From a bacterium (GTDB lineage: Bacteria; Patescibacteriota; UBA1384; XYA2-FULL-43-10; JAKAMI01), in the NCBI GenBank assembly GCA_021812945.1, contig JAKAMI010000002.1, forward strand, positions 1,047-65,046: a stretch of DNA of 64,000 nt, written 5' to 3'. The notes below the pieces were generated by a model. That model was not told where the DNA came from. It ran no database searches and saw only the letters and a program-made list of their open reading frames with translations. Numbering within the stretch: the stretch's first letter is position 1; each line of letters begins with the position of its first letter. Below are positions 1-43,522 of the stretch, one piece after another. A program made the translations under genes and the position numbers.

Positions 1-1277
1 TTTCGATCGGAAAAGGGCACGAACTTGTGCTCGCCCACGGCCATAACCTCCTCTGCGCCCTTGCCGGTGATTACCACCACGTCTCCTTTCTCAGCCTCGG
101 CGATGGCTTTGCGAATGGCTTGCTTTCTGTCTAAAACTTTCCAGTAGTTACGATTCAGCCTCCACTGATTCTTTCTGCCGCCTTTGAGGACTCCGGCGGC
201 CACAACCTCGATAATCGACATCGGGTCTTCGTCGTAGGGATCCTCGTCCGTCACAATTATTAGGTCGGCGTAGTTTCCGGCCAGAGCTCCCATGATCGGC
301 CGTTTGGTCGTATCGCGTCGGCCGGTGGCGCCGAGGACGGCGATCAGCCGGCCGCCACGGTTTTGCATACCTTGTTTGACGGTCTCATAAACATTTTTTA
401 GCGAGTCGGCGTTGTGGGCGTAGTCGACGATGACGGTAAAATCCTGTTTGGGGCTGACTACAATCTGTTCCATCCGTCCGCGGATGCCCGAGACATTTTC
501 CAGGCCTTTTTTGATTATTTCAGGATCAATCCCCAAAGCCACACCGGTGCAGAAAGCCGCCAGCTGGTTTGAGATATTGAAAATGCCCGGCAGGTGCGAG
601 TTGATAGCTACTTGGCCGTTTTCCGCGGCGGCGGTGAAGGTGGAACTGTCCGGGCTCAGGAGAATCTTGCGGGCAACGGCGCCGTGATCAACCGACTTGT
701 TGATCGAGAACAAAAACTTTTCCTTGGCCTTGAGGTTGTAAAAAAGATTCCAGTGCTGATCGTCGCGGTTAATGACAAACTTAGCCTCGGGGTTTTGTTT
801 GAAAACCTTGAGCTTGGCATTGAGGTAATTTTCCATCGTCTTGTGATAGTCCAGGTGGTCGTGCGAGAGATTGGTATAGACTAAAACGTCGAAATCAATG
901 CCGTGAGTGCGGTATTGATCGATAGCCGAAGAGGTGACTTCCAGCACAACATGAGTGATACCCCGATTCTTGATTTCTCTAAAAAATTTTTGCAAAACAT
1001 GCGCCGGAGGAGTGGTGACCCAGAGATTTTTTTCAGTGTGATAGATGGTTTTGTCGCCGATTTTAGTGTTGATGGTCGTCTCCATGGCGTTGGGGATTTT
1101 GGCTGCGTCCAGGATAGAAGATATCAAGTTGCAGACAGATGTTTTGCCTTTGGTACCGGTGACGCCGACGACGGTCAGTTTCTTGGAGGGATTGCCATAG
1201 CGAATCCGCGCCAGCTGCGACTGGAGCTTGTGAAGTTTGTTTTTGGTTGATTGGGGCAAAAGTTTCTTTAGGTTCAT
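1..1277 (-). CDS. Mur ligase family protein (MurE/MurF-like), 3' part cut by window edge
   Basis: Minus-strand translation from the ATG at about 1277 reads MNLKKLL...LTVVGVTGTKGKTSVCN (Mur ligase P-loop)...DHLDYHKTMENYLNAK and continues past position 1. The ORF track lists only antisense + ORFs here. Confidence 0.7.
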   Translation of the reverse strand, partial: MNLKKLLPQSTKNKLHKLQSQLARIRYGNPSKKLTVVGVTGTKGKTSVCNLISSILDAAKIPNAMETTINTKIGDKTIYHTEKNLWVTTPPAHVLQKFFREIKNRGITHVVLEVTSSAIDQYRTHGIDFDVLVYTNLSHDHLDYHKTMENYLNAKLKVFKQNPEAKFVINRDDQHWNLFYNLKAKEKFLFSINKSVDHGAVARKILLSPDSSTFTAAAENGQVAINSHLPGIFNISNQLAAFCTGVALGIDPEIIKKGLENVSGIRGRMEQIVVSPKQDFTVIVDYAHNADSLKNVYETVKQGMQNRGGRLIAVLGATGRRDTTKRPIMGALAGNYADLIIVTDEDPYDEDPMSIIEVVAAGVLKGGRKNQWRLNRNYWKVLDRKQAIRKAIAEAEKGDVVVITGKGAEEVMAVGEHKFVPFSDR

Positions 1278-1316: not shown

Positions 1317-2354
1317 TTAACGTCTAATTTTTTCCGCCATCTTGAAAAGCTGGTATTTTGTTTTGTTGAAAACCAGGTCGTAGCTACCCAGAAGATCGAC
1401 TTGACGGCCGCCGAACTGTTTTTTGAAGCGGGTTACTCCAGCCCATGGATGCTTGGGATTATTGTCCGGCGCGATGCCGAAGAAGTCGTATTCGACGCAT
1501 CCTTTGGTCTTGGCGTCTTTGATGATCTCCCAGTGCAGTTTGTAAGGCGCCATCAGCTCGCGGTGTTTACTGCTCGATCCGCCAAAGAGATAGGTCGCTC
1601 TTTTATCGTAGTAGGTGACAATGGCGGCGGCAAGGATAGTTGACTCGTTGACTCGTTGACTCGTGGATTCGTTACTCGATTCGTAATTTTGTACTTTTGT
1701 TGTTCCATTTGTACTTTCGTGAGGGGCGCGCGCTTCGCGCGCCAGGAACACTTGAACATAGTCCTTTTCTTTCAAAATGTCAACCAGTTTTTGGAAATAT
1801 TGTTCGTTGCGGTAGGTAATCTTTTGTCTCTTTGCCATGATTTGGTAGAGCTGAAAGAATTCGCGGACGGAATCGGTTTTTTCAATGATTATCCCGCTAC
1901 GCTCGGCAACCCTAATATTATATCTGCCTTTCGGTTTCATTTGTTCCAGAATCTCTGCCTCTGTCCGGTCGATATCGAGTATGAGCGTATGTTCGGGTTG
2001 CATCTCCTCAAAAGCCTTAATGTAGTCCGAAAGTCCCAAAGTCCCAAAGTCCTGAGTCGCCGGTATGTCAAACTCGGCGCGGCAGAAGATGGCTTTGTTT
2101 TCTGATGCGATATTTTTGATTTGTTTTAGATAACTTTGAGATTTGAGGTCTGAGACTTGAGATGCGCCCAACATGGGCGAATATAGCATCGACCATCCAA
2201 GTGGTAATTTCTTCTGCAGCAATAAAATACCGCTTACTCGGTAAGATTTTGAGTAGCCTGTTTTCAGTTTGAACTTTTCCCATTCCGGTGTCTGAAATAT
2301 TGATGACATTGGTTTCATCTTATCAAAAAAAGCCCCCGAAAGCGAGGAAGTCAA
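1317..2354 (-). CDS. FemAB-family peptidoglycan interpeptide-bridge transferase, with an in-frame repeat insertion
   Basis: 345 aa. The C-terminal half (YDFFGIAPDNNPKHPWAGVTRFKKQFGG) is typical of FemAB/FemX. An internal stretch ESTNGTTKVQNYESSNESTSQRVNEST is encoded by tandem ttgactc heptamers plus a tacaaa repeat. Confidence 0.7.
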   Translation of the reverse strand: MTSSLSGAFFDKMKPMSSIFQTPEWEKFKLKTGYSKSYRVSGILLLQKKLPLGWSMLYSPMLGASQVSDLKSQSYLKQIKNIASENKAIFCRAEFDIPATQDFGTLGLSDYIKAFEEMQPEHTLILDIDRTEAEILEQMKPKGRYNIRVAERSGIIIEKTDSVREFFQLYQIMAKRQKITYRNEQYFQKLVDILKEKDYVQVFLAREARAPHESTNGTTKVQNYESSNESTSQRVNESTILAAAIVTYYDKRATYLFGGSSSKHRELMAPYKLHWEIIKDAKTKGCVEYDFFGIAPDNNPKHPWAGVTRFKKQFGGRQVDLLGSYDLVFNKTKYQLFKMAEKIRR

Positions 2355-2951: not shown

Positions 2952-3287
2952 TTAGGGCATCGAGGGAATGGGATGGATGCCTAGGAGGTAGGCGGTATGG
3001 GACTCGACGACGGCCTGAAATGTCGATGGCAGATCTAACGCGCCTGAATGGTCCTTAAGGCAGCAGTGCCAGTTGGCTTCGACCCCTTGGTACTCCGCAC
3101 ATAAGTTGAACAGCCAATCGAAGTACCAAGGTTGCGGCAGGTTAATCAGGTAGAGACGGTACGGCCCCTCAGGGGTTTCGATGACGTGAGGTTGCGGTAG
3201 GTCTGTTACCCCGCAGTTTTGGGGTAGTTGGTTGAGTAGACTCGTGTTGTCTATGACGGGAGCTATCAGGACAGATGCCGGATGCAT
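2952..3287 (-). CDS. Hypothetical protein; doubtful
   Basis: 111 aa ORF in the same high-GC block, no motifs. Confidence 0.2.
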   Translation of the reverse strand: MHPASVLIAPVIDNTSLLNQLPQNCGVTDLPQPHVIETPEGPYRLYLINLPQPWYFDWLFNLCAEYQGVEANWHCCLKDHSGALDLPSTFQAVVESHTAYLLGIHPIPSMP

Positions 3288-3389
3288 GAACGTCCCTCCA
3301 TGTGCGAGCTTGGTCTGTCTAATTCTAAAATAGATAATATTATATGCACTGTCTAGACCTCGAAGCTATAATCTGTTATTTTGGAGGAT

Positions 3390-4856
3390 ATGAAAGAGAT
3401 TAAAATATTGGCCATAGAAACAAGTTGCGATGAAACCTGCGCAGCCGTTATCATGGCTGCCTCCTCGCGAAAGTACAAAAACTACAAAAGTACAAACATT
3501 GGAGAATGCCCGGTCGTTTTGTCGAATGTGGTGAGTTCGCAGATCGACCTGCACGCAAAAACCGGCGGCATCGTGCCGGAGGTGGCGAGTCGAGCGCATA
3601 TAGAGGTGATCGTCCCTGTTATTCGCGAAGCGCTCATAATAGCAAACCCTAAACTCGAAATTCTAAACTCTAAAAAAATTCAAAAATCTAAAAATAAGAT
3701 CAGCGCTGTGTTAGAGAACAATTTAGTAATTCAGCAATACAGCAATGAAATTTCGGAAATGCTTTCCGAAATTACCCACATCGCCGTGACTTCCGGGCCG
3801 GGGTTGGTCGGGGCGCTGTTGGTAGGGTTTAACACGGCCAAAACATTGGCGTATTCGCTGAATATTCCCATCGTGCCAATTAACCATATTGAGGGACACA
3901 TTTACTCGGCGATGGCCTCTGTGCCTGTCATTGCTAGGGCCGGTGTTTCGGCCCGTGGCAATCTAGCAAAGGAGATTGCCAGGTCGCCCCTCCTCGCAAT
4001 GACAAAGGGAGGGGTCAACTTCCCCATCTTGGCTTTGACAGTCTCGGGTGGTCATACTTCGCTTACCATAATGAAAGACCATGGAGTCTATGAAAACATC
4101 GGCCACACCATAGATGATGCAGCGGGCGAGGCATTTGATAAAGTGGCCAAGTTATTGGGACTAGGCTACCCGGGAGGACCGGCTGTTTCTAAACTCGCTG
4201 AAGAGTTTAGAAACAGAATAATCAATAATCAAGAGACAATAACCAAACAAATTCCAAATTCTAAATCTCAAAATCTCAAACCGGACTTCCGGACTTCCGG
4301 ACTTTCGGACTCGGGACTTGTATTTCCCCGTCCGATGCTCAATTCGGGAAACTTTAACTTTTCTTTCTCAGGACTCAAAACCGCGGTTCTAAATATAGTC
4401 CATAGTCTAAAAGTCCAAGAGTCCAAAGGTGAAAATTCGAAGACTTTAGGACTTCCGAACTTTCGGACTCAGGACTGGCGACCGGAGGTCGCCTTCGCTT
4501 TTGAAGAGGCGGTGGTGGATGTGCTGGCGACCAAGACGATGAGAGCGGTACTTAAATACAAACCGAAAACCGTGGTTCTAGCCGGCGGGGTGGCGGCGAA
4601 TAATCGATTGAGATCAGAACTACAGGGAAGGATTGAGACATATAATCACGGTCATCCTGAACTTGTTTCAGGATCCCATGGTAGACTGGAGGATTCTTCG
4701 GCTGCGCCTCAGAATAATGTGTCGTTGTTGATGCCTCCTCCGGAAATGTGTGGGGACAATGCGGCCATGATCGGACTGGCGGCGTACTACCACATTTTCC
4801 GCGGAGAAACTCCAAAATGGCACGAAATAAGTCTTGATGCCAATGCAAAACTGTAA
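3390..4856 (+). CDS. tsaD: tRNA N6-adenosine threonylcarbamoyltransferase TsaD (Kae1/Gcp family), about 150 aa longer than usual because of repeat insertions
   Basis: MKEIKILAIETSCDETCAAV N-terminus and GPGLVGALLVG motifs. An SD (ttggaggat) precedes the ATG at 3390; the ORF track starts at an upstream TTG. Inserts: [72 protein letters not shown]. Confidence 0.85.
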   Translation: MKEIKILAIETSCDETCAAVIMAASSRKYKNYKSTNIGECPVVLSNVVSSQIDLHAKTGGIVPEVASRAHIEVIVPVIREALIIANPKLEILNSKKIQKSKNKISAVLENNLVIQQYSNEISEMLSEITHIAVTSGPGLVGALLVGFNTAKTLAYSLNIPIVPINHIEGHIYSAMASVPVIARAGVSARGNLAKEIARSPLLAMTKGGVNFPILALTVSGGHTSLTIMKDHGVYENIGHTIDDAAGEAFDKVAKLLGLGYPGGPAVSKLAEEFRNRIINNQETITKQIPNSKSQNLKPDFRTSGLSDSGLVFPRPMLNSGNFNFSFSGLKTAVLNIVHSLKVQESKGENSKTLGLPNFRTQDWRPEVAFAFEEAVVDVLATKTMRAVLKYKPKTVVLAGGVAANNRLRSELQGRIETYNHGHPELVSGSHGRLEDSSAAPQNNVSLLMPPPEMCGDNAAMIGLAAYYHIFRGETPKWHEISLDANAKL

Positions 4857-21667: not shown

Positions 21668-22672
21668 ATGGAAAATCATCCGAAGGTTTCGATAATTATC
21701 CCAGCTAGGGCAATCAACGACTACATCTTAGAGTCGGTGCCGAAGATTTTGGAACTAGACTGGGATGACTACGAGATTTTAATAATTACCGATAAAAAAG
21801 ACACTCAGCACACTTGGCCCAAGACTCATTTACTTGTTTCGGGGCCAGTCGGTCCGGCCGAGAAGCGCGATCTTGGGGCGAAGAAGGCTAGCGGCGAGAT
21901 TTTAGCCTTTTTGGATGACGACGCTTACCCCGAGTCCAACTGGCTCAAGGAGTCGATCCACTGTTTTCTGGAGGATGAAAAGGTCGCAGCCGTCGGCGGC
22001 CCGGCCATAACCCCCGGTGACGACGGGATTTTACAAAAAGTCTCCGGCGCGGTTTTCGAGTCGTACCTCGGCGGCGGCCCTGCCCGCAACCGCTATATGT
22101 GCCTCGGCGACCATTGCCTGTGCGAAGACTGGCCGACCGTAAATTTACTAGTCCGCAAGGACGTTTTCGAGAAGATTGGCGGCTTCGATACCGCTTACTG
22201 GCCCGGTGAAGATACGAAATTATGTTTGGATATTTTAAACGCCGGCTATCTGATGAAATACGACCCCAAAGCTATCGTTTACCACCACCGCCGGAGCGAC
22301 CTCTACAAACATCTGAAACAAACCGGCAACTACGCTTTGCACCGCGGCCACTTTGCCAAGAAATATCCCAAGACTTCGCTCAAGCTGTTTTACTTTGTCC
22401 CCACTCTTTTTGACCTTTACCTTGCTGTCCTGCTGTCCAGCTGTTTAGCTGTCTGGCTCGGAGAAATACAGTTTGACAGCTGGACAGAATACAGTTTATT
22501 AATTCCAATCGCAATATATTCGGTCGGGCTAGTCATCGATGCTCTCATCATTAGTTGGCGGTGGAAGAACCCGCTAGTCGGCCTGCTGGCTACGCCGATG
22601 ATCCTTTTAACCCACCTCTGGTACGGTATTCGCTTCGTCCAAGGACTGGCGGTTACAAAATTAGCACGCTAA
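21668..22672 (+). CDS. Family 2 glycosyltransferase with C-terminal TM segments
   Basis: VSIIIPARAINDYI...LAFLDDDAYPESNWL. The last approximately 125 nt are duplicated in diverged form at 27463-27585. Confidence 0.8.
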   Translation: MENHPKVSIIIPARAINDYILESVPKILELDWDDYEILIITDKKDTQHTWPKTHLLVSGPVGPAEKRDLGAKKASGEILAFLDDDAYPESNWLKESIHCFLEDEKVAAVGGPAITPGDDGILQKVSGAVFESYLGGGPARNRYMCLGDHCLCEDWPTVNLLVRKDVFEKIGGFDTAYWPGEDTKLCLDILNAGYLMKYDPKAIVYHHRRSDLYKHLKQTGNYALHRGHFAKKYPKTSLKLFYFVPTLFDLYLAVLLSSCLAVWLGEIQFDSWTEYSLLIPIAIYSVGLVIDALIISWRWKNPLVGLLATPMILLTHLWYGIRFVQGLAVTKLAR

Positions 22673-22737
22673 AATCCTGAATCAATGACTCGAATCCGAT
22701 CTTACCCCTTTCGCTGATTTTTGATAAACTCATAAAT

Positions 22738-24276
22738 ATGAACAGCCCCGACCTAGCCCTAGATAACCACGACCGAGACCGTGAGAACCATCCGGATCTT
22801 GGTCGAATTATCGATCCTAAACACCTTACCCTTCTTGACGAGGTAGTTGATAACGGCCAACACAGATTGAGTGAACTATTGAAGCGACACGGGAAAATAG
22901 CCGAACCGCTTATGGAGCGTTTCGGGCAATTGCTCGAAAATGCCAGTCGACTCTCAGAATATCTGGACGACGTTTTGGGTCAAGCCGGTTACCAAAACGA
23001 TGCCGGAAGAATCCTGCAGAATATACTCCAACCGGCCGTAGCCTGGGCTGAGAACCAACGGTTTGAATATCCAGATGATAACCCCGACTATGATCCGCCA
23101 TTCCCCCTGCCTTCGGATCTGCACTTGTTCTACATCCACCCGATCGAATCTTTCTTGGGTCAAGCCGAACGTTCAATCGACGGTTTTGTCAAATATCAAT
23201 ACTATTTCGAGCGGTTCTGGCGAGAAACGGAGCCGTCGACGACGAAAAGCGACTTGATCACTCCGGAAAAAGTGGCCGCTGGCCAAGAGAAGATAATGCA
23301 GAGTTTAAATCTAAACGAGTACGAAAAAAGAACCGCCGATGCTTCTGTGACCCTGCATTATTTGCTACAAGGACTGCTGGAAACCTCCGATGCCGATATC
23401 TTGCGCCTCTTGCGTCACCAATCTCCTGCCCGAGAAAAACTGGTTTTGGACTTGGGTTGCGGTACCGGCCGGCTTGATATTGCTCTCGCCCTAACCGGTC
23501 GTTTTAAGATCAATGGGATAGACTTGTCCTCCGAAGTTCTGGAACAGGCCGGCCAGCGAGTCGCCAATATAGCCGGCCCTGCGGGGCAAGATCAAGTACT
23601 GGGCGATCTGGACACGGCTGTCGGTTCTCTCTGGGCAAGCCGGCAAAAAAGAATCGGCCGCCTCGACATAGACCGCCAGCGCTTAGAATTATCGGACAGG
23701 CTGAGCTTAAAAAAGGCTAGTTTTTTTGAACTGAACAGAGAGAAATACCAAGAGCTGTTTGGCAATCGACTTGCCGACGCTGTTACCATCACTTGGCACA
23801 CCTTCGGTTTTGCCGGTGACCGCTCGGGACAGCTTCAAGTCTTAGCAAATGCCATTGACAACCTGGAACAGGGCGGGAGGATTCTAATAGAAATGCCCGA
23901 CCGTGAATTGGGTGAGTACGGGCGGGTAGCAGAGAGCTATCATCGGCAATCGGGCGGCAAGACGCCGCTGGGAGTTGTGGTCGACCGACCGGCCGGCAAA
24001 GGCAGTGTTTCCAACCCCGACTCCGAAGGCGCTCCGCGCTACTTCCCGAGCAAGGCTGAGATGTTCTCGGTTCTAAAAGAAGCCGGTTTCGAAAAAGTCG
24101 GTTGTCAAAGCTACTATATTCGGATCCGCGACAACGGCAAAGAACGATTGATTAAAGAAATTCTGTACACAGCGCAAAAACCGCTGGCCGCCGGCGACTC
24201 GGAAAAAGAGGCAATACTAACCTATCGTCTAAGAAATCCCAACAGCTTTGATGCCCTGCCAAGCGAGCTCGAATAA
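22738..24276 (+). CDS. Hypothetical protein with a class I SAM-dependent methyltransferase domain (residues about 230-400) and a novel 220 aa N-terminal region
   Basis: LVLDLGCGTGRLDIALALTG (motif I) and ILIEMPD (post II). Confidence 0.55.
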   Translation: MNSPDLALDNHDRDRENHPDLGRIIDPKHLTLLDEVVDNGQHRLSELLKRHGKIAEPLMERFGQLLENASRLSEYLDDVLGQAGYQNDAGRILQNILQPAVAWAENQRFEYPDDNPDYDPPFPLPSDLHLFYIHPIESFLGQAERSIDGFVKYQYYFERFWRETEPSTTKSDLITPEKVAAGQEKIMQSLNLNEYEKRTADASVTLHYLLQGLLETSDADILRLLRHQSPAREKLVLDLGCGTGRLDIALALTGRFKINGIDLSSEVLEQAGQRVANIAGPAGQDQVLGDLDTAVGSLWASRQKRIGRLDIDRQRLELSDRLSLKKASFFELNREKYQELFGNRLADAVTITWHTFGFAGDRSGQLQVLANAIDNLEQGGRILIEMPDRELGEYGRVAESYHRQSGGKTPLGVVVDRPAGKGSVSNPDSEGAPRYFPSKAEMFSVLKEAGFEKVGCQSYYIRIRDNGKERLIKEILYTAQKPLAAGDSEKEAILTYRLRNPNSFDALPSELE

Positions 24277-25029
24277 ACCGGACATAGTCTTGGCTATCAG
24301 CTCGTTCTCGATAATCACGCCTATCAGGGCGTTATTTTTGTTATAGTTGGCAAAAGAAACCTTGTTGCCGTATATTTGCACTTCCAAAAGTGCCGGAAAA
24401 AGTTTTTGTTCGACGACCCTGGTCTCTCTTAGCTCCTCTTTGGTTCTTCCAATATATGAAGCGGTTTCCGGATCGGTTTTATCAGCGGAGACTATAACCC
24501 GGGCGGTAATTTTATTTTTAATCCTTAAAGGTGCGTAGCTTTTCCTCAGCCAACTGCTAACTGTTTCTTCGGCTTGTGTCAACCCAAGAAAAGACTTGAT
24601 CGGTTGCCCGGACCTCAAAGTATCCAAATAGAGATTTTTAATACCCTCTATCCCTTCAAAAACTCTTACTACCGGTTTCTCGGTGGTGTTTCTGTAAAGC
24701 TCGGAAAGTCCGGGAATGACCGAGTCGATCATCTTCTGGGCCTGGGAAAGCTCTCGTTCCCTGTTGTTCAAATAAACTTTTAGCTGGTACGGGTCGTTTG
24801 GCCGGAATTCGAGTTTCTTTTTTACGTCGGACTTTTGGACTAAGGACTTCTGGGCTAAGGACTGTAAAACATTGTAGAGATTGGTTCGCGAAAGCTTGGG
24901 GATCAGTTTCTGCATAGATAAAATGCTGACCTGTCCGTTCTTGATCAGAACTTCGTAAACCAAAGCCTCACTGTCGTTGAGACCGGTTCTGGCGAGTATT
25001 TCTTTATAATTGATGTCTTTTCTGTCCAT
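24229..25029 (-). CDS. TrmB-like winged-HTH transcriptional regulator
   Basis: ATG at 25029. N-terminal wHTH (LNDSEALVYEVLIKNGQVSILSMQKLIPKLSRTNLYNVLQSL). Converges on and overlaps the previous gene by 48 nt. Confidence 0.5.
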   Translation of the reverse strand: MDRKDINYKEILARTGLNDSEALVYEVLIKNGQVSILSMQKLIPKLSRTNLYNVLQSLAQKSLVQKSDVKKKLEFRPNDPYQLKVYLNNRERELSQAQKMIDSVIPGLSELYRNTTEKPVVRVFEGIEGIKNLYLDTLRSGQPIKSFLGLTQAEETVSSWLRKSYAPLRIKNKITARVIVSADKTDPETASYIGRTKEELRETRVVEQKLFPALLEVQIYGNKVSFANYNKNNALIGVIIENELIAKTMSGLFELAWQGIKAVGIS

Positions 25030-25189
25030 ATCTCTATTATAGATCAAGTAATATAATATGTCAATTATTAAATGACAAATAAATAGAAACGATGATTAAA
25101 GTAAAGATAATTGGTAAAATAGGATACTGATAAATACTTATAAATTAAGAGATCAATTTTAAAATAAACTTAAGTACGTCATAACACCA

Positions 25190-25218
25190 TTGACAAATGC
25201 AAAATAATATGTTATACT
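25190..25218 (+). promoter_or_regulatory. Consensus sigma70-type promoter (TTGACA-17-TATACT)
   Basis: ttgacaaatgcaaaataatatgttatact in an AT-rich spacer. No ORF follows. Confidence 0.6.
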
Positions 25219-25224
25219 GCTTCC

Positions 25225-25636
25225 GTTACGATGGAAATCGGCCAAGGGCTTCAGGAAGCCGGGCAATAATCCAAAGTAGCACCTTAACAACCGAATATAC
25301 GCAGGTAGTAGCTGGTTTCACCGCCTCAAGCCCCACCAGGTCGGAGGCAAAACCGAAGCTAAAGCGCCGGAATTAAGTCGGCTTCCGCCCCCAGCGGGTG
25401 GACGCGTATTCGTAATTATCCGGTCTTTGGCAACCCGATCCTAGAGTCAGGAGCTTTAGAATCAATTGAGTGTAGTTTTATCCTTGCTTCAGGAGTGTAG
25501 TGATAAACCTATATATAACCATTAATCGAATGAGCCCAGGCATCACCCTCGAGGTGGGCCTTGACTCCTCGAGGGTGGGACAGGTTGTTCTCTACCGCAC
25601 TCAAAACGGCGTTTAAAAACGCCGCCTTTCCAGCGC
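25225..25636 (+). ncRNA. Candidate non-coding RNA of about 400 nt, unknown class
   Basis: Perfect promoter upstream, GC-rich potentially structured sequence, no ORF over 60 aa on this strand, ends at hairpin cggcgtttaaaaacgccgcctttcc. It contains a family-D palindrome (caccctcgaggtgggccttgactcctcgagggtggg). No tmRNA, RNase P or SRP signatures were found. Confidence 0.3.
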
Positions 25637-26044
25637 TACTAATACATCATTAGAGGATCGGTTCGTGGTCTTCGGGCCATTGAACCCAAGATTCTCTATA
25701 GTCTCAATTCGCGACTCCCTTCGCTGCCCGTCATTCTGAGCAATCCCAACTGTCATTCTGAACGAAGTAAAGAATCTAGCGAAGCGAACAGCATTCTTTC
25801 CCATCTGGTCCTAAGCTGTCGGTGTCGGTGTACTGCCTACGCCAAGACTCAGGGGTGGAGAAGAAGAATTATTTTTTGTACAACCTTTGTCTCTTGTTTT
25901 TCACCCCGAGGGTGGGTTTTGACTCCCTCGGGGTGGGGCAAAAGACAAGGTTGTACAAAATACCCGCCGGCCTTCGCGCCAGGCGGGAAAATACCCTACC
26001 CCGGGTAAGTTCTCCATCTTGTCGGGAGCCGAAGGAGGCAGAAA

Positions 26045-26503
26045 ATGGAAGAAAAGATCAAAAAGGTCGTTTTTGTTCTGCTCGCCGCGATCAACGCGGC
26101 GATGGCGGCCTCGTTTGAGGCCGCCCGTCAAGCGCGCATTGAGGCGCGTCTTGACCGGCAGCGGCAGACTATCAAGAAGATGGCGATGGCCTCGCTCACG
26201 CCCACCGAGTGGGCGTTGGCCGGCCGCATCTCGGGTTACTTGGAGTGCCCTGAAGTAGCATTTCAGGGTTGGTGGCAGTCGCTGGCCCATAACTGGGCCT
26301 GCCGGACTGCCCTTGATTCCGAGGGGAACTTCCGCGACCCCTCGGAATCACAAGAAGTCGCGGATGCTCTTGCCTGGTTGGGGTTTCCTAGCCAGGCGGC
26401 GTATGCCACGTCGATGGAGGTCCTCTGGGCCATCCATCGCGCGATGGCGTATGTAAAAGCCGGGCACGAAGGCTGGATCGTGCCGTCGGGTGGTTGTGAA
26501 TAG
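26045..26503 (+). CDS. Hypothetical protein in a GC-rich (about 65%) cassette
   Basis: Strong SD gaaggaggcagaaaATG. 152 aa, no known domain. Confidence 0.45.
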   Translation: MEEKIKKVVFVLLAAINAAMAASFEAARQARIEARLDRQRQTIKKMAMASLTPTEWALAGRISGYLECPEVAFQGWWQSLAHNWACRTALDSEGNFRDPSESQEVADALAWLGFPSQAAYATSMEVLWAIHRAMAYVKAGHEGWIVPSGGCE

Positions 26504-26696
26504 CTAACCGGCCAAGGGACCATTCCGCGCCCTAAAGATTCCGATGAAAATCGGAACGTGTCCGCCTTTAGCGGATGCGGCGGCGTTATTCCGGTGCCTC
26601 GTTCGCCATGGCGGACAAGCAGCCCGAGTTCGACCGGAAGACGATAACTGAGATGGTGGCTGCTAACTAGATTTGTGGCAGAAAGGAGGTGAAACG

Positions 26697-26927
26697 ATGA
26701 GTTCTTGGATCAGAATCTGTTCTGAATGTGGGGGGGAAGTTGTCGGGCAGGCGGGTTGCTACGCCTGCTCGACGGAGGCTACCGCCCGCAGGGGCGGCCA
26801 GCCAGAGCAGGGGCACCACCTCTGTTCTGTTTGGTCGGAGGCTCAAGCCTCCAGTGAAAAGTGGTATCCACTTTTCACGGAGCGTTCTGACAGGGCATGC
26901 GACTGTCCTGCCAGAAACCTCCGATAG
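26697..26927 (+). CDS. Small Cys-rich (zinc-ribbon-like) hypothetical protein
   Basis: SD aaggaggtgaaacgATG. CSECGG...CYACS pair. Confidence 0.4.
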   Translation: MSSWIRICSECGGEVVGQAGCYACSTEATARRGGQPEQGHHLCSVWSEAQASSEKWYPLFTERSDRACDCPARNLR

Positions 26928-27263
26928 CCTCCGGAGTCTGCAGGCTCCGAGGTTGTTAATCCTGCAGCGTAAGTCCGGTGTGCTCCTGTAGCCCGAGATT
27001 CGACCGGAATACGAAAGCTTAGGTGGCGGCTACGATTTGCAATCATACCCGGCCCCGACGTCAGTGTCGGGGCCAAAAGAACAGTTGAGCCGAAATCCAC
27101 ACCAGGAAAGTAGGCTCACCTTCACCCGCTAAGCGGGTCTGATGAGTCTTTGAAAATTAAGACGAAAAGGTGAGTTATCGCCAACCTGCCTTTAGGTTGC
27201 ACTCCTGTCCCGACGCCCCGATTTGCGTCGGGGGTCGGGAGCCACCTGAGGGCAGATTAGCCT

Positions 27264-27306
27264 AAAAAATCCTCGCGTTATAACCGTACCGCGGGGATTT
27301 TTTAGT
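27264..27306 (+). terminator. Intrinsic terminator
   Basis: aaaaaatcctcgcg-ttataaccgtac-cgcggggattttttag. Confidence 0.6.
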
Positions 27307-27319
27307 TTGGAGACCAGAC

Positions 27320-27462
27320 CTAATTTTAGTCTGTAGCGAAATATAGCTTGTTCTGTCATTCTGAACACAGTGAAGAATCTCTACCTGTAGAATAGATCCT
27401 TCGCAAGCTCAGGATGACAGAAATTAGCTTAGGATGACAAAATCAAACTTAAGGATGACAGA
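27320..27462. mobile_element. Truncated copy of a GTCAT-hairpin MITE (full copy with terminal inverted repeats at 60907-61050)
   Basis: Roughly 85% identical to 60917-61040. The left TIR agtctgtagc is present, the right TIR is missing, and the copy ends exactly at the junction with the duplicated gene tail. Confidence 0.6.
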
Positions 27463-27585
27463 TATTAGTTGGCGGTGGAAGAACCCGCTAGTCGGCCTGC
27501 TGGCTACGCCGATGATTTTCCTCACCCACCTCTGGTACGGTATTCGCTTTGTCCAAGGCTTAATTGTTTCTAAATTGGCCAGATA
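27463..27585 (+). other. Diverged duplicate of the GT2 gene 3' end (candidate attR; displaced original gene tail)
   Basis: 52 nt identical core (ttagttggcggtggaagaacccgctagtcggcctgctggctacgccgatgat), then synonymous or conservative divergence. It encodes ISWRWKNPLVGLLATPMIFLTHLWYGIRFVQGLIVSKLAR* versus ...ILLTHLWYGIRFVQGLAVTKLAR* at 22548-22672, and is followed by its own terminator. Confidence 0.65.
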
Positions 27586-27602
27586 AAAGCTCTCTTAAAA
27601 CA

Positions 27603-27650
27603 CAGAACCGCCGCCTAGACTGACGACGATTGCGGTTCTGGTTTTTTGTG
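27603..27650 (+). terminator. Intrinsic terminator (bidirectional position)
   Basis: cagaaccgc-cgcctagactgacgacgatt-gcggttctg gttttttgtg. Confidence 0.65.
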
Positions 27651-27663
27651 CGACAGCGTGCGC

Positions 27664-28305
27664 CTACTGAGCGGTGGTCATCCAGTTGGATCGAGAACCA
27701 CACTGTGTCTCAAAATCGCCGACTCGCTCGAGGAGGAACTGAGAACGTGTTCTCGCTGCCGCCAGTTGCTTCTGGCGCACCTCTGTACACCGCTGAAACT
27801 CCCCAAGAATCTCGCGGACCATCTCCAGGGGTCGGAGACAGACACAGTTGAGGAGCTCCGTTGAGGTGACTACCCGGCTGGTGATCTCCACCGCTTTGCT
27901 GACTGTGAGATCACGATCCGAGTCGGGGGCCTCAGAGTAGGTCACCGTAGTAACAACCCATCCTTCTGAGCAGACACCCCAGATCTGACACCTATTGCTT
28001 AGTCTGTTCTCCTCCAACCATAGGAAACGCTGATCGTAGAAGAACATGCCTCTGGTGTTCTTCTTGAGAACCCCGGTGACTTTCGGCTTGTCCTGGAATA
28101 AATAGTGGGGAGATACACCGTCCCCCAGACATTCGACGTCAAGGATTGCCGAGAGTGGCAGGTCCCAGATCTCGTGCCTGAGGTAGTCGAGGAGTTGGTC
28201 GAATGTCTCTTCCCACCTACTTTCGCTGGTAATCTGGCGGATGACAGCGGCTCGTAGGTCACGTTCCCGGTCTGAGGTGAGTCTGATAGTGTTCTCGGTT
28301 GACAT
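27664..28305 (-). CDS. Hypothetical protein (no recognisable domain) adjacent to the IS
   Basis: ATG at 28305 with an aaggaggt SD. Confidence 0.45.
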   Translation of the reverse strand: MSTENTIRLTSDRERDLRAAVIRQITSESRWEETFDQLLDYLRHEIWDLPLSAILDVECLGDGVSPHYLFQDKPKVTGVLKKNTRGMFFYDQRFLWLEENRLSNRCQIWGVCSEGWVVTTVTYSEAPDSDRDLTVSKAVEITSRVVTSTELLNCVCLRPLEMVREILGEFQRCTEVRQKQLAAARTRSQFLLERVGDFETQCGSRSNWMTTAQ

Positions 28306-42737: not shown

Positions 42738-42766
42738 TTGACACGGTTTGCTAGAAAAGATACAAT
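42738..42766 (+). promoter_or_regulatory. Consensus promoter TTGACA-17-TACAAT inside a 1.1 kb non-coding region
   Basis: ttgacacggtttgctagaaaagatacaat. Confidence 0.5.
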
Positions 42767-42772
42767 GATACA

Positions 42773-42980
42773 ATCCCAAAGAAAAAAGGGAGGTAACCAC
42801 ACGGATCTTGACACAGATGAAACACAGATAGCACATTAACAATGAGGTCCCGAAATAAATTCGGGATGACAATATCGAAAAAGTGTCTGGAGGGACAGCT
42901 TTCGCTAAGTCGAAAGTTCGTAAAGTTACAAAGTTTGTAAAGTTACCATGATGAATCCCTCCGGCAGAGGGATTTTTTGG
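42773..42980 (+). ncRNA. Candidate small RNA of about 200 nt (promoter to intrinsic terminator)
   Basis: Bounded by the promoter above and the terminator aatccctccggcagagggattttttgg (42955-42980). No plausible ORF inside. Confidence 0.3.
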
Positions 42981-43522
42981 TAGGAGAGATGGGGATATCG
43001 GTTTGCCCACCCGATAAACACTAAGCATTTTATAAATCGTTAAAAGAAGTGGTTTGTAAATAGTTTAGTCCCCAGCTCTCCCATCGAAATAAGTTAAAAG
43101 TTGAAAGTTATAAAGTAACGAGTAAACTAATAACAGAAACAAAAAAACAGAAATTCAGAAAATCGAAACAAACAGAAAATCAGAAAAGAGCACATTGACA
43201 AAAGGATGGGAAAAAATAGGGAAGTTGCAAAAAGCAACCTTAGTGTAAAATACAATTTTATATTAGGGATGCCACAAAGCTAGAGATCCTTCGCCGATTC
43301 TTTCAGAATCGCTCAGGATTTCGCTAAAAGCGAAACTTTGCGACACCCCTAATGGGCGTAAGCTTTACGACCGGGTCATAATTTAAAATTATATTATCCC
43401 GACAAGTCGATTACCAGTTTGCGCCCAAACCAAGAAACATCCAGCAATGAGGGTGTTTTTTGGTTTAGAAAATCAAATTGGTCTAATTAGACTAATTGGT
43501 CAAATTGGTCTAATATTCAGGT

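What the first reader, a model, noticed from the sequence alone, without database searches (positions are those of the whole stretch)
25190..25640. Orphan consensus promoter driving an ORF-less, structured transcript of about 400 nt inside the inserted segment
TTGACA-17-TATACT is as strong a sigma70-type promoter as any in the window, yet no coding sequence follows. The downstream roughly 400 nt are GC-rich with multiple potential helices, include a family-D palindrome and end at a hairpin. I could not match it to tmRNA, RNase P, SRP, 6S or group I/II intron signatures. Its location in a putative mobile segment suggests an element-encoded regulatory or guide-like RNA.
Basis: seen in the sequence. 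Interest (0 to 1): 0.65.

Follow-up and report, generated by a model that had tools for sequence, protein, structure and literature searches.

The report
Conserved boxA-bearing leader RNA in CPR bacteria
The promoter is real and drives a non-coding, structured RNA that is conserved next to the same regulator gene in many ultra-small (CPR) bacteria, matches no catalogued RNA family, and looks like the front end of a ribosomal-RNA operon with no ribosomal RNA behind it.

Summary
The promoter is confirmed: TTGACA-17-TATACT with a TG extension, one of only three sites in 64 kb scoring at least 11/12. No conserved ORF follows and no Rfam family matches. The RNA is not an orphan. More than 25 Patescibacteria loci carry the same promoter, always divergent from a TrmBL2-like regulator gene and linked to a large SAM methyltransferase.

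The conserved RNA spans about 25225-25514. It has three parts: a four-helix 5' domain with compensatory changes, a boxA-like GCACCUUAACAAC, and a covarying 3' hairpin. CAGGA loops on stems of differing sequence recur, at seven times the background density. The GC-rich middle (25293-25440) is lineage-specific. The "family-D palindrome" is a dispersed repeat, and the terminal hairpin is neither terminator-like nor conserved.

Homologs lack a conserved terminator, and 1-2 kb without called genes follows the promoter. The best reading is therefore an rrn-leader-like antitermination module heading a long, largely untranslated transcript, under control of the divergent regulator. TGTCA-N8-9-TGACA palindromes overlap both -35 boxes. 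This mechanism is inferred, not shown. A CsrB-like protein-binding RNA is the main rival. The guide-RNA idea has no support.

The parts
24229..25029 (-). TrmBL2-like winged-helix regulator (266 aa), divergent from the RNA. Its mRNA is probably leaderless, since the -10 box ends 7 nt before the ATG (inference).
   Evidence: Pfam TrmB. 59 homologs. AlphaFold model pLDDT 89.7. Best PDB match is TrmBL2, E 1e-15, full length. Exact protein found on 10 contigs.
25036..25064 (-). Regulator promoter TTGACA-17-TATAAT (12/12).
25059..25077 (.). Operator-like palindrome TGTCA-N9-TGACA overlapping the -35 box of the regulator promoter.
   Evidence: A TGTCA-N8-10-TGACA palindrome lies 137-144 nt upstream of the RNA -35 box in 12 of 29 family members, and within 260 nt in 15.
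25177..25195 (.). Second operator-like palindrome CGTCA-N9-TGACA overlapping the -35 box of the RNA promoter.
   Evidence: (T/C/A)GTCA-N8-9-TGACA is seen at this place in the close homologs (read by eye, because the regex under-counts).
25190..25218 (+). RNA promoter: -35 TTGACA, 17-nt spacer with TG extension, -10 TATACT. Transcription start inferred near 25225.
   Evidence: The same promoter geometry is conserved in 26 distinct loci.
25225..25280 (+). 5' domain. P1 is 25225-25229 with 25276-25280. P2 is 25232-25235 with 25270-25273. P3 is 25241-25243 with 25262-25264. P4 is the hairpin 25247-25260, with CAGGA at 25252.
   Evidence: The same architecture appears in independent MFE folds of the homologs. 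RNAalifold gives 17 pairs, 7 with compensatory changes. P1 own-versus-cross complementarity is 0.50 against 0.11. CM hits score 62-89 bits.
25279..25291 (+). boxA-like element GCACCUUAACAAC, directly 3' of P1.
   Evidence: Most conserved transcribed block in the family. The pattern occurs 3 times in the window against 0.34 expected. A genuine CPR rrn leader has GGAACUUUGAAAAUC at the equivalent place. The gamma-proteobacterial consensus is GYTCTTTAANA (PMC5725501).
25293..25440 (+). GC-rich, strongly folding core specific to this lineage. It is not conserved in any homolog.
   Evidence: nhmmer finds only itself. Fold.
25441..25459 (+). Hairpin CUAGAGU-CAGGA-GCUUUAG (7 bp, CAGGA pentaloop).
   Evidence: Equivalent CAGGA hairpins on different stems occur in L095, L014, L013, L178, L016 and L019.
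25470..25514 (+). Conserved 3' hairpin: a 12-14 bp AU-rich stem enclosing the invariant UUUAUCC...CAGGAGU...GAUAA.
   Evidence: HMM hits of E 1e-11 to 1e-14 in all close homologs. Also present in L177 and L178. 90% of cells paired, 3 pairs with changes on both sides, covariation score above 500 of 500 shuffles.
25544..25579 (.). Not part of the conserved RNA.
   Evidence: Family D20 and inverted pair I16, with copies at 6288, 25544, 25902 and 48203.
25608..25623 (+). It has no U-tract.
   Evidence: Not listed by the terminator scan. No conserved counterpart.
22738..24276 (+). Class I SAM methyltransferase (512 aa), convergent with the regulator and always linked to the module.
   Evidence: Pfam. 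tblastn synteny. Versions of 900-1100 aa in relatives. In Paceibacteria-type loci it lies downstream of the leader on the same strand.
26045..26927 (+). Two orphan small ORFs with strong Shine-Dalgarno sites: 152 aa (26045-26503) and 76 aa with CxxC...CxxC (26697-26927). They sit in a 59% GC stretch downstream on the same strand.
   Evidence: (no homolog among 5.8 billion clusters).
27116..27173 (+). Type III hammerhead ribozyme, 1.9 kb downstream on the same strand.
   Evidence: RF00008, 41.5 bits (gathering score 48.5), E 2.8e-7, complete core. Near-identical ribozymes on the RNA-sense strand in L020 (two), L030 and L031.
27464..27588 (+). Right copy of the 125-nt direct repeat. The left copy is 22550-22674, the 3' end of the glycosyltransferase gene. 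Together they bound the island.

Best explanation
The finding is the 5' part of a conserved transcription unit of CPR/Patescibacteria.

A near-consensus sigma-70 promoter fires divergently from the gene of a TrmBL2-like DNA-binding protein. That protein probably binds TGTCA-N8-9-TGACA palindromes that overlap the -35 boxes of both promoters, controlling both itself and the RNA.

The first ~290 nt of the transcript (25225-25514) are non-coding and modular. They comprise a four-helix 5' domain capped by a CAGGA loop, then a boxA-like element, then a variable core, a second CAGGA hairpin and a conserved 3' hairpin. The order promoter, hairpin, boxA at about +55 is that of a ribosomal RNA operon leader.

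I infer that the nascent boxA recruits NusB/S10 and the other Nus factors. The polymerase would then be protected from Rho while it crosses the following 1-2 kb, which is untranslated or only sparsely translated. In this window that stretch holds two orphan ORFs and a hammerhead ribozyme. The CAGGA-loop hairpins would bind an unidentified RNA-binding protein.

Shown: the promoter, the non-coding nature, conservation and synteny, the helices, the motif enrichments, and the absence of a conserved terminator. Inferred: Nus binding, antitermination, control by the regulator, and the extent of the transcript.
For: Promoter; conserved in 26 loci.

Non-coding: start codon not conserved; no codon periodicity over about 1.2 kb that is 75-87% identical between L094 and L177, whereas the following gene shows third-position bias.

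Synteny with regulator and methyltransferase.

Structure.

boxA-like block. For consensus and precedent of boxA outside rRNA, see suhB (PMC5725501) and CRISPR arrays (PMC7665894).

No conserved terminator after the 3' hairpin.

No genes called for 1.1-2.2 kb downstream in three homologous loci.

Operator palindromes. Regulator fold.

The third strong promoter in the window (42738) is also followed by a boxA-like motif.
Against: No experiment and no transcript data support the model.

The boxA match is by resemblance. It scores 8 of 10 specified positions against GYTCTTTAANA, and only one genuine CPR rrn leader (L083) was available for comparison. The organism's own rrn leader was not seen.

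NusB, S10, SuhB and Rho were not located in this genome. tblastn on the DNA in hand found none, which is uninformative.

The other boxA-like leader at 42738 is followed after about 200 nt by a good intrinsic terminator. A short RNA does not need antitermination, so the motif may do something else.

The CAGGA hairpins and the 3' hairpin are not explained by antitermination.

Structural support rests on 6-10 sequences.

In this window the hairpin at 25608 could still end some transcripts.
Confidence: 0.45

Rival explanations
1. It is a stand-alone regulatory RNA that works by binding protein. Its CAGGA loops on hairpins would sequester or recruit a CsrA/RsmA-type (or other) RNA-binding protein, as CsrB and RsmZ do. 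The 3' hairpin would be the stabilising end of a processed RNA.
For: CAGGA occurs at 6.7 per kb in the family against 0.95 per kb in background. 7 of 23 copies are exact pentaloops on stems of at least 4 bp, against 2.6% in background (p about 1e-6), and the stem sequences differ (folds). CsrB carries repeated CAGGA(U/A/C)G in hairpin loops (PMC7652899). csrA is reported among highly expressed genes of ultra-small groundwater prokaryotes (PMC9938205).
Against: There are only 2-3 sites per RNA, against about 18 in CsrB. The motif is CAGGAG, one base shorter than the CsrB repeat. No csrA was found in the DNA in hand, which is uninformative. There is no conserved terminator. In the 3' hairpin the GG may pair with the invariant CC. 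YCAGGAG is not enriched in the window as a whole.
Confidence: 0.2
2. It is a cis-regulatory 5' UTR, riboswitch-like or protein-responsive, that controls the genes downstream. In distant CPR lineages this would be the methyltransferase operon.
For: In Paceibacteria-type loci a 420-590 aa methyltransferase lies 1.2-2.3 kb downstream on the same strand. The 3' hairpin contains an SD-like AGGAG.
Against: In the window and its ten closest relatives the methyltransferase is on the other side of the regulator. Nothing downstream is conserved at protein level. No start codon follows the 3' hairpin at a fixed distance. No conserved ligand-pocket-like core exists, because the middle is the variable part.
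Confidence: 0.1
3. It is a relic or functional mimic of the 5' end of a ribosomal RNA operon: promoter, leader, and the place where 16S would begin. It would be either decaying or kept as a decoy for rRNA transcription or processing factors.
For: It has the same layout as the genuine leader in L083: promoter, hairpin, boxA at about +62 and 16S at about +237. Here boxA is at +55 and the 3' hairpin at +246. The window's 3' block resembles the universal 16S 5' end, AGTTTTATCCTTGCTTCAGGA against AGTTTGATCCTGGCTCAGGA (p<0.0005; L015 p about 0.01).
Against: The 16S resemblance is not significant in L014, L095, L013 or L019. The block folds as a long hairpin, unlike 16S helix 1. No rRNA lies in the window or in 13 homologous loci. 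Conservation with covariation argues against mere decay.
Confidence: 0.1
4. It is a guide-like or element-maintenance RNA of a mobile element.
For: The module lies in a 4.8-kb segment bounded by a duplicated gene 3' end. A hammerhead ribozyme lies downstream. Flanking genes differ between genomes.
Against: There is no integrase, transposase, RT, Cas/TnpB/IscB or IS110-type partner inside the segment. The ISL3 transposase lies outside the repeats. There is no repeat-spacer or target-matching segment. No hits were found in phage or IMG/VR collections beyond chance. No empty site was found in the population.
Confidence: 0.05

Closest known systems
Ribosomal RNA operon leader (boxB hairpin, boxA, boxC; Nus-factor antitermination complex)
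   Same: It has a very strong promoter, then a hairpin immediately followed by a boxA-like U/A-rich element about 55 nt into the transcript. An untranslated RNA follows. The layout matches the genuine CPR rrn leader in L083.
   Different: No rRNA follows. No boxC was recognised. The hairpin is an elaborate four-helix domain with a conserved CAGGA loop. The unit is always paired with a TrmBL2-like regulator gene.
boxA elements outside rRNA: CRISPR array leaders (PMC7665894) and the suhB 5' UTR (PMC5725501)
   Same: A boxA sits ahead of a long non-coding or poorly translated transcript that would otherwise be a Rho substrate.
   Different: No CRISPR array and no Nus-factor gene lies downstream. 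The motif here is embedded in a conserved ~290-nt structured RNA. Function was not tested.
CsrB/CsrC/RsmY/RsmZ protein-sequestering sRNAs
   Same: GGA-containing CAGGA motifs are displayed in hairpin loops on stems of varying sequence.
   Different: There are only 2-3 sites. The motif is CAGGAG rather than CAGGA(N)G. There is no conserved terminator, no Rfam match, and the CsrA partner is not demonstrated.
Processive antitermination RNAs (HK022 put, Bacillus EAR) and lambda nut sites
   Same: A structured element in the nascent RNA near the promoter is proposed to make the polymerase termination-resistant over kilobases. (What these elements do is from my own knowledge.)
   Different: There is no sequence or structural similarity. 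The Rfam scans at E<=10 over 24900-26200 and E<=5 over 26400-27800 gave only noise-level snoRNA/miRNA-type hits and the separate hammerhead. The nut order is boxA then boxB; here the hairpin comes first.

Membership tests
Any Rfam 15 family (tmRNA, RNase P, SRP, 6S, riboswitches, large ornate RNAs and others) | Covariance-model score at or above the gathering threshold | tested here: not met
   There is no hit on 25190-25640 at gathering score. At E<=10 only sub-threshold snoRNA hits overlap it, on the minus strand. ARAGORN finds no tmRNA. 13 homologous loci also give nothing.
rrn operon leader | Strong promoter followed by a hairpin and then boxA within about 50-80 nt | tested here: met
   Promoter 11/12 plus TG. 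P1-P4 domain at 25225-25280. boxA-like block at 25279-25291.
rrn operon leader | boxA sequence equal to that of the lineage's own rRNA operons | tested here: inconclusive
   Only one genuine CPR rrn leader was available (L083: GGAACUUUGAAAAUC). Family members read GAACCUUGAAAAU, GAACAUUGACAA and GCACCUUAACAAC.
rrn operon leader | 16S (or 23S/5S) rRNA gene downstream | tested here: not met
   No rRNA is found in the 64-kb window or in the homologous loci scanned.
Nus-factor boxA target (general) | Binding of NusB/S10 and boxA-dependent resistance to Rho | not testable with these tools
   This needs EMSA, ChIP or in-vitro transcription. Presence of nusB and rho in the genome was not established (one search is uninformative).
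CsrB/Rsm-type sRNA | Multiple GGA motifs in hairpin loops | tested here: met
   There are 2-3 CAGGA motifs per RNA, enriched 7-fold. 7 of 23 are exact pentaloops on stems of at least 4 bp, against 2.6% in background.
CsrB/Rsm-type sRNA | High site number (4-20) and a discrete terminated sRNA | tested here: not met
   At most 3 sites are present. No conserved intrinsic terminator follows.
CsrB/Rsm-type sRNA | Cognate CsrA/RsmA protein encoded by the organism | not tested
   Only 64 kb of this genome was available. tblastn on all DNA held found none. The literature mentions csrA expression in ultra-small prokaryotes.
Riboswitch or cis-regulatory leader | Conserved downstream gene class and a conserved ligand- or protein-binding core | tested here: not met
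   Downstream genes are not conserved among close relatives. The central part of the RNA is the least conserved.
Guide RNAs of mobile elements (omega RNA, bridge RNA, tracrRNA, retron msr-msd) | Adjacent cognate protein (TnpB/IscB, IS110 recombinase, Cas, RT) | tested here: not met
   Pfam, NCBIfam, PADLOC and PHROGs scans of the neighbours give only TrmB, a SAM methyltransferase and orphans.

The most novel reading that the evidence does not exclude
The promoter heads a new class of long (1-2 kb) non-coding RNA of CPR bacteria. It would be co-inherited with a TrmBL2-like chromatin or regulator protein and a giant SAM methyltransferase. Its conserved head imitates a ribosomal-RNA operon: rrn-type promoter, hairpin plus boxA, and a 16S-start-like hairpin. 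It would act as a decoy or scaffold that ties Nus factors, a CAGGA-loop-binding protein, or ribosome-biogenesis factors to the expression of variable, horizontally acquired cargo that includes hammerhead ribozymes.
Probability: 0.15. Interest if true: 0.8.

Novelty: new variant of a known kind. Interest (0 to 1): 0.55.

Why it matters
CPR/Patescibacteria make up a large share of bacterial diversity, yet almost nothing is known about how they regulate genes, and hardly any of their non-coding RNAs have been described.

This locus offers a testable regulatory module conserved across several CPR classes. It has a defined promoter pair, candidate operators, a candidate regulator, and an RNA with defined helices and motifs.

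If the boxA reading holds, Nus-factor antitermination extends beyond rRNA, suhB and CRISPR arrays to a further class of long untranslated transcripts, in organisms with minimal genomes. If the CAGGA hairpins bind a CsrA-like protein, this would, as far as I know, be the first such RNA partner proposed for CPR bacteria.

The practical value is a seed alignment for an RNA family that Rfam lacks.

Tried and rejected
- **Rfam and ARAGORN.** Scans at gathering and permissive thresholds on the window and 13 homologous loci found nothing for the target.
- **Phage collection.** blastn gave no match.
- **IMG/VR pattern scan for promoter plus GTTACGATG.** Three hits, all the same AT-rich phage without hairpin or boxA. 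Judged chance.
- **The 152-aa ORF as a handle for synteny.** It has no homolog at all.
- **Methyltransferase word-index search.** It returned only itself.
- **Leaderless mini-ORF starting at AUG 25231.** Rejected, because neither the start codon nor the peptide is conserved.
- **Small ORF behind the AGGAG of the 3' hairpin.** Rejected, because no start codon sits at a fixed distance.
- **A second promoter inside the boxA-like block (TTGACA in some homologs).** No -10 box at the right spacing, checked by eye.
- **16S 5'-end mimicry of the 3' block.** Significant only for the window and L015, so kept as a weak lead.
- **MAFFT alignment of 23 5' domains.** Too poorly registered for pair counting. 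Replaced by an own-versus-cross complementarity test and a 6-sequence alignment.
- **Covariance model of the 5' domain.** It recovered only its six training sequences and no further copy in the window.
- **Arrays in the downstream region (CRISPR- or TIGR-like).** Only genome-wide REP-like repeats were found.
- **Search for an empty insertion site.** None found.
- **tblastn for CsrA, NusB, NusG and Rho in the DNA held.** Nothing found, which is uninformative.
- **PADLOC and PHROGs.** Only generic methyltransferase-domain matches.
- **L065 as a homolog of the central core.** Borderline (E 0.12) and partly circular, so not used.
Full report
**1. The observation**

The sequence at 25190-25218 reads TTGACA, 17 nt, TATACT, with TG two bases before the -10 box. 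The consensus scan scores it 11/12. A scan of the whole window finds only three sites at 11/12 or better. These are this one, the divergent promoter at 25064..25036 (12/12), and one at 42738.

No credible ORF follows. The only ORFs over 30 aa on the + strand are a 59-aa frame that begins inside the promoter and a 38-aa frame at 25500.

The + strand of 25225-25640 folds 5.2 standard deviations better than dinucleotide shuffles. The - strand gives only 2.6. GC is 0.55 over 25225-25440, against 0.20 in the spacer upstream and 0.48 for the window.

Rfam 15 gives no hit at gathering score. At E<=10 it gives nothing beyond sub-threshold snoRNA-type noise on the opposite strand. ARAGORN finds no tmRNA. 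So the promoter, the lack of coding and the foldedness are real.

**2. The RNA is not an orphan**

The organism is a member of the CPR/Patescibacteria near Candidatus Berkelbacteria. The gene divergent from the promoter (24229-25029) encodes a 266-aa TrmB-family protein.

I fetched loci around its homologs from species-representative genomes and metagenomes. I then searched them with nhmmer, starting from the window sequence alone. The RNA region is found just upstream of, and divergent from, the regulator gene in every close relative (regulator identity about 50%). These are L013, L014, L015/L096, L016/L106, L094/L176, L095, L019/L103 and L122, and later L177 and L178.

A profile of the first 115 nt then finds the same promoter and 5' element in 26 distinct loci. 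They are annotated as Berkelbacteria, Paceibacterota, Moraniibacteriota and other Patescibacteria, and the element is again always divergent from the regulator.

The -35 box, 17-nt spacer, TG extension and -10 box are conserved throughout. The AUG at 25231 is CUG, AUA, CUA or UUG in relatives, and the short peptides differ, so it is not a start codon.

**3. Anatomy of the conserved RNA**

Three blocks are conserved.

*(a) The 5' domain, 25225-25280.* Independent minimum-energy folds of the homologs give the same stack of helices with different sequences.
- P1: GUUAC/GUAGC here, GUUACG/CGUAAC, GUUAAG/CUUAAC, GUCAAG/CUUGAU, GUUAUG/CAUAAC or CUGUC/GACAG elsewhere.
- P2: UGGA/UCCA or UGAG/CUCA.
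- P3: a short helix.
- P4: an apical hairpin whose loop is CAGGA or AGGA.

RNAalifold on six sequences returns 17 pairs, 7 of which carry compensatory changes. In a cruder test over 24 sequences, the 6-mer after the start site finds a perfect complement in its own RNA in 50% of cases. It does so in 11% of cases in other members' RNAs.

*(b) The boxA-like block, GCACCUUAACAAC (25279-25291), directly after P1.* This is the best-conserved transcribed block. Variants are GAACAUUGACAA, GAACCUUGAAAAU, GCACAUUACAAAAAU and GUUCUUUCAAUCAA.

*(c) The 3' hairpin, 25470-25514.* A 12-14 bp AU-rich stem encloses the invariant UUUAUCC, CAGGAGU and GAUAA. It is present in all ten close homologs. 90% of cells are paired, three pairs change on both sides, and the covariation score exceeds all 500 shuffles.

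Between (b) and (c) the sequence is not conserved. The window's GC-rich, strongly folding core at 25293-25440 has no counterpart anywhere in the DNA I held.

**4. A recurrent hairpin motif**

CAGGA occurs 2-3 times in every member. Its density is 6.7 per kb, against 0.95 per kb in about 1.2 Mb of CPR DNA.

Seven of 23 copies are exact pentaloops closed by stems of at least 4 bp, against 2.6% in the background (binomial p about 1e-6). The stems all differ: CUAGAGU/GCUUUAG in the window (25441-25459), and UACCU/GGGUA, CUUCU/GGAAG, CACCC/GGGUG, GUUUUGAU/GUCAAAAC, GCGGU/GCCGC and AGUGC/GCACU in relatives.

Most other copies sit in slightly different loops of P4 or in the 3' hairpin. This is the signature of a protein-recognised hairpin. 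The nearest known parallel is the repeated CAGGA(U/A/C)G in hairpin loops of CsrB (PMC7652899).

**5.

The palindrome at 25544-25579 is one copy of a dispersed repeat also found at 6288, 25902 and 48203. The hairpin at 25608-25623 is followed by GCCTTTCC and is not reported by the terminator scan. Neither is present in homologs.

No homolog has a terminator-like site within several hundred nt after the 3' hairpin.

Gene callers leave 1.1-2.2 kb without genes downstream of the promoter in three related contigs.

Between L094 and L177, about 1.2 kb downstream of the leader is 75-87% identical with no third-position bias. The 245-aa gene that follows shows clear bias. The transcript therefore probably runs on as a long, largely untranslated RNA.

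In the window the downstream 2 kb is 59% GC. It holds two orphan ORFs with strong Shine-Dalgarno sites (26045-26503 and 26697-26927). It also holds a type III hammerhead at 27116-27173.

**6. Resemblance to an rRNA operon leader**

One fetched locus (L083) happens to contain a genuine patescibacterial 16S gene. Its leader reads TTGACG-17-TATTAT, then a hairpin, GGAACUUUGAAAAUC at about +62, and 16S at about +237. The family has the same order and spacing. In the window boxA is at +55 and the 3' hairpin at +246.

The gamma-proteobacterial boxA consensus is GYTCTTTAANA (PMC5725501). The window motif matches 8 of its 10 specified positions, and distant members match better.

The pattern GMACMTTRAMAA occurs three times in the window against 0.34 expected. 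One of the other two sites lies about 65 nt downstream of the third strong promoter, at 42738.

boxA elements outside rRNA are known ahead of CRISPR arrays and in suhB, where they counter or modulate Rho (PMC7665894, PMC5725501). However, no rRNA follows here.

The 3' block of the window resembles the universal 16S 5' end (p<0.0005). This holds only weakly for L015 and not for four other homologs, so I treat it as a lead only.

**7. The neighbourhood**

The regulator model (pLDDT 89.7) matches TrmBL2 over its full length (E 1e-15). It has a winged helix, a long helix and a PLD-like C-terminal domain.

A palindrome TGTCA-N8-10-TGACA overlaps the -35 box of the regulator promoter. It lies 137-144 nt upstream of the RNA -35 box in 12 of 29 members, and within 260 nt in 15. 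A second, less perfect copy overlaps the -35 box of the RNA promoter (25177-25195). These are probable operators.

A class I SAM methyltransferase always accompanies the pair. It is convergent with the regulator in the Berkelbacteria-type loci (512 aa here, 900-1100 aa elsewhere). In Paceibacteria-type loci it lies downstream of the leader on the same strand. Its substrate is unknown, since only generic domain matches were found.

Other flanking genes are not shared between genomes.

In the window the whole module lies between two copies of the last 40 codons plus stop of the glycosyltransferase gene (22550-22674 and 27464-27588). So the 'inserted segment' is real. No empty site was found among contigs of this population.

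**8. Interpretation**

Best supported (about 0.45): an rrn-leader-like module at the head of a long, sparsely translated transcript. It would be controlled by the divergent TrmBL2-like protein. The boxA-like element would recruit Nus factors, and the CAGGA hairpins would bind a further, unidentified protein.

The steps from motif to Nus binding and antitermination are inference. They are weakened by three things. Only one genuine CPR rrn leader was available for comparison. nusB and rho were not located. The 42738 unit appears to end at a good terminator after about 200 nt.

Rivals, with my confidence in each:
- a CsrB-like protein-binding RNA (0.2);
- a cis-regulatory UTR (0.1);
- an rrn relic or mimic (0.1);
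- a guide-like element RNA (0.05).

**9. Verdict**

This is a real, conserved, uncatalogued RNA of CPR bacteria. Its function is unproven.

Noticed in passing
window 27116-27173 (+): Type III hammerhead ribozyme with a complete core. It scores 41.5 bits, below Rfam's gathering score of 48.5, with E 2.8e-7. It lies 1.9 kb downstream of the promoter on the same strand. The predicted cleavage site, after C27124, is read from the sequence.
   Followed up: partly
L020 about 3270-3400 and 215-340 (-); L030 about 2045-2165 (-); L031 near 419 (-): Hammerheads with the same or similar stem II (GUCUUUGAAAAUUAAGAC) lie on the RNA-sense side of other TrmB-like loci. L020 has two in the same orientation about 3 kb apart, which could release the intervening RNA.
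   Followed up: partly
window 42738-42979 (+): This is the third-best promoter in the window (TTGACA-17-TACAAT). About 65 nt later comes a boxA-like AGCACAUUAACAAU, and at about 42953-42979 a good intrinsic terminator (AUCCCUC...GAGGGAU plus U6). It is a candidate ~200-nt sRNA in a 1.1-kb gene-free gap between dnaB and a '23S rRNA IVS protein'-like gene. No homolog was found in the loci held.
   Followed up: partly
window 43190-43201 (+): A third boxA-like match (GCACATTGACAA) lies in the same intergenic gap. It may instead be a -35-like TTGACA with flanks.
   Followed up: no
window 22550-22674 and 27464-27588: A 125-nt direct repeat (86% identity). Both copies encode the last 40 codons and the stop of the glycosyltransferase gene, and they bracket a 4.8-kb island (methyltransferase, regulator, RNA, orphan ORFs, hammerhead) that has no recombinase inside. 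Several Logan contigs start inside the left copy and end at 27417.
   Followed up: partly
window 26620-26668 and 26990-27036 (+): Two copies of a ~45-nt motif (CCCGAG(A)UUCGACCGGAA.ACGA...GGUGGC.GCU), 82% identical over 33 nt. The closing helix changes from GCAGCC/GGCUGC to GUAGCC/GGCUAC, a compensatory change. One copy precedes the 76-aa ORF and the other precedes the hammerhead.
   Followed up: partly
window 26682-26699: The 76-aa CxxC...CxxC ORF has an unusually long Shine-Dalgarno match, AGAAAGGAGGTGAAAC. This is 14 of 16 positions of the reverse complement of the 16S 3'-end query used, and complementary to the 16S 3' end.
   Followed up: no
window 25059-25077 and 25177-25195; equivalents in L013-L019, L094, L095, L177, L178: TGTCA-N8-10-TGACA palindromes overlap the -35 boxes of both divergent promoters at a near-constant distance (137-144 nt in 12 of 29 loci). 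They are probable operators of the TrmBL2-like protein.
   Followed up: partly
L094/L176 and L177, about 0.65-1.9 kb downstream of the promoter: About 1.2 kb is conserved at 75-87% identity with no codon periodicity, although the leader middle regions of the two loci have diverged beyond blastn detection. This is a candidate long non-coding RNA body.
   Followed up: partly
L045, L032, L129 (Paceibacterota), first ~550 nt after the promoter: A longer version of the RNA has extensive conserved blocks (AAAUGGCACUGGAAA, GAGCCAUCG.CGG.AUAGAAAGUGGUCCUUG, CAGGAGCAGGCUUUCUAAAAGUCUAG, CUCACUGGCAUUUUUGUGGA). It has no Rfam match.
   Followed up: no
window 25470-25495 against the 16S 5' end: AGTTTTATCCTTGCTTCAGGA resembles the universal 16S start AGTTTGATCCTGGCTCAGGA (p<0.0005 for the window, about 0.01 for L015, not significant for four other homologs).
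   Followed up: yes
window-wide, e.g. 12462, 14942, 15913, 20149, 21550, 48461; 27406-27466; 25732-25777 and 27353-27380: The genome is rich in dispersed intergenic repeats. These include a 93-nt palindromic family, GTCATTCTGA...GAAGAATC units, and triple AGGATGACA units next to the island's right end.
   Followed up: no
L093 259-975 (-): In one relative, the first gene downstream of the leader matches the putative CRISPR-associated family Cas_VVA1548 (Pfam E 7e-10).
   Followed up: no
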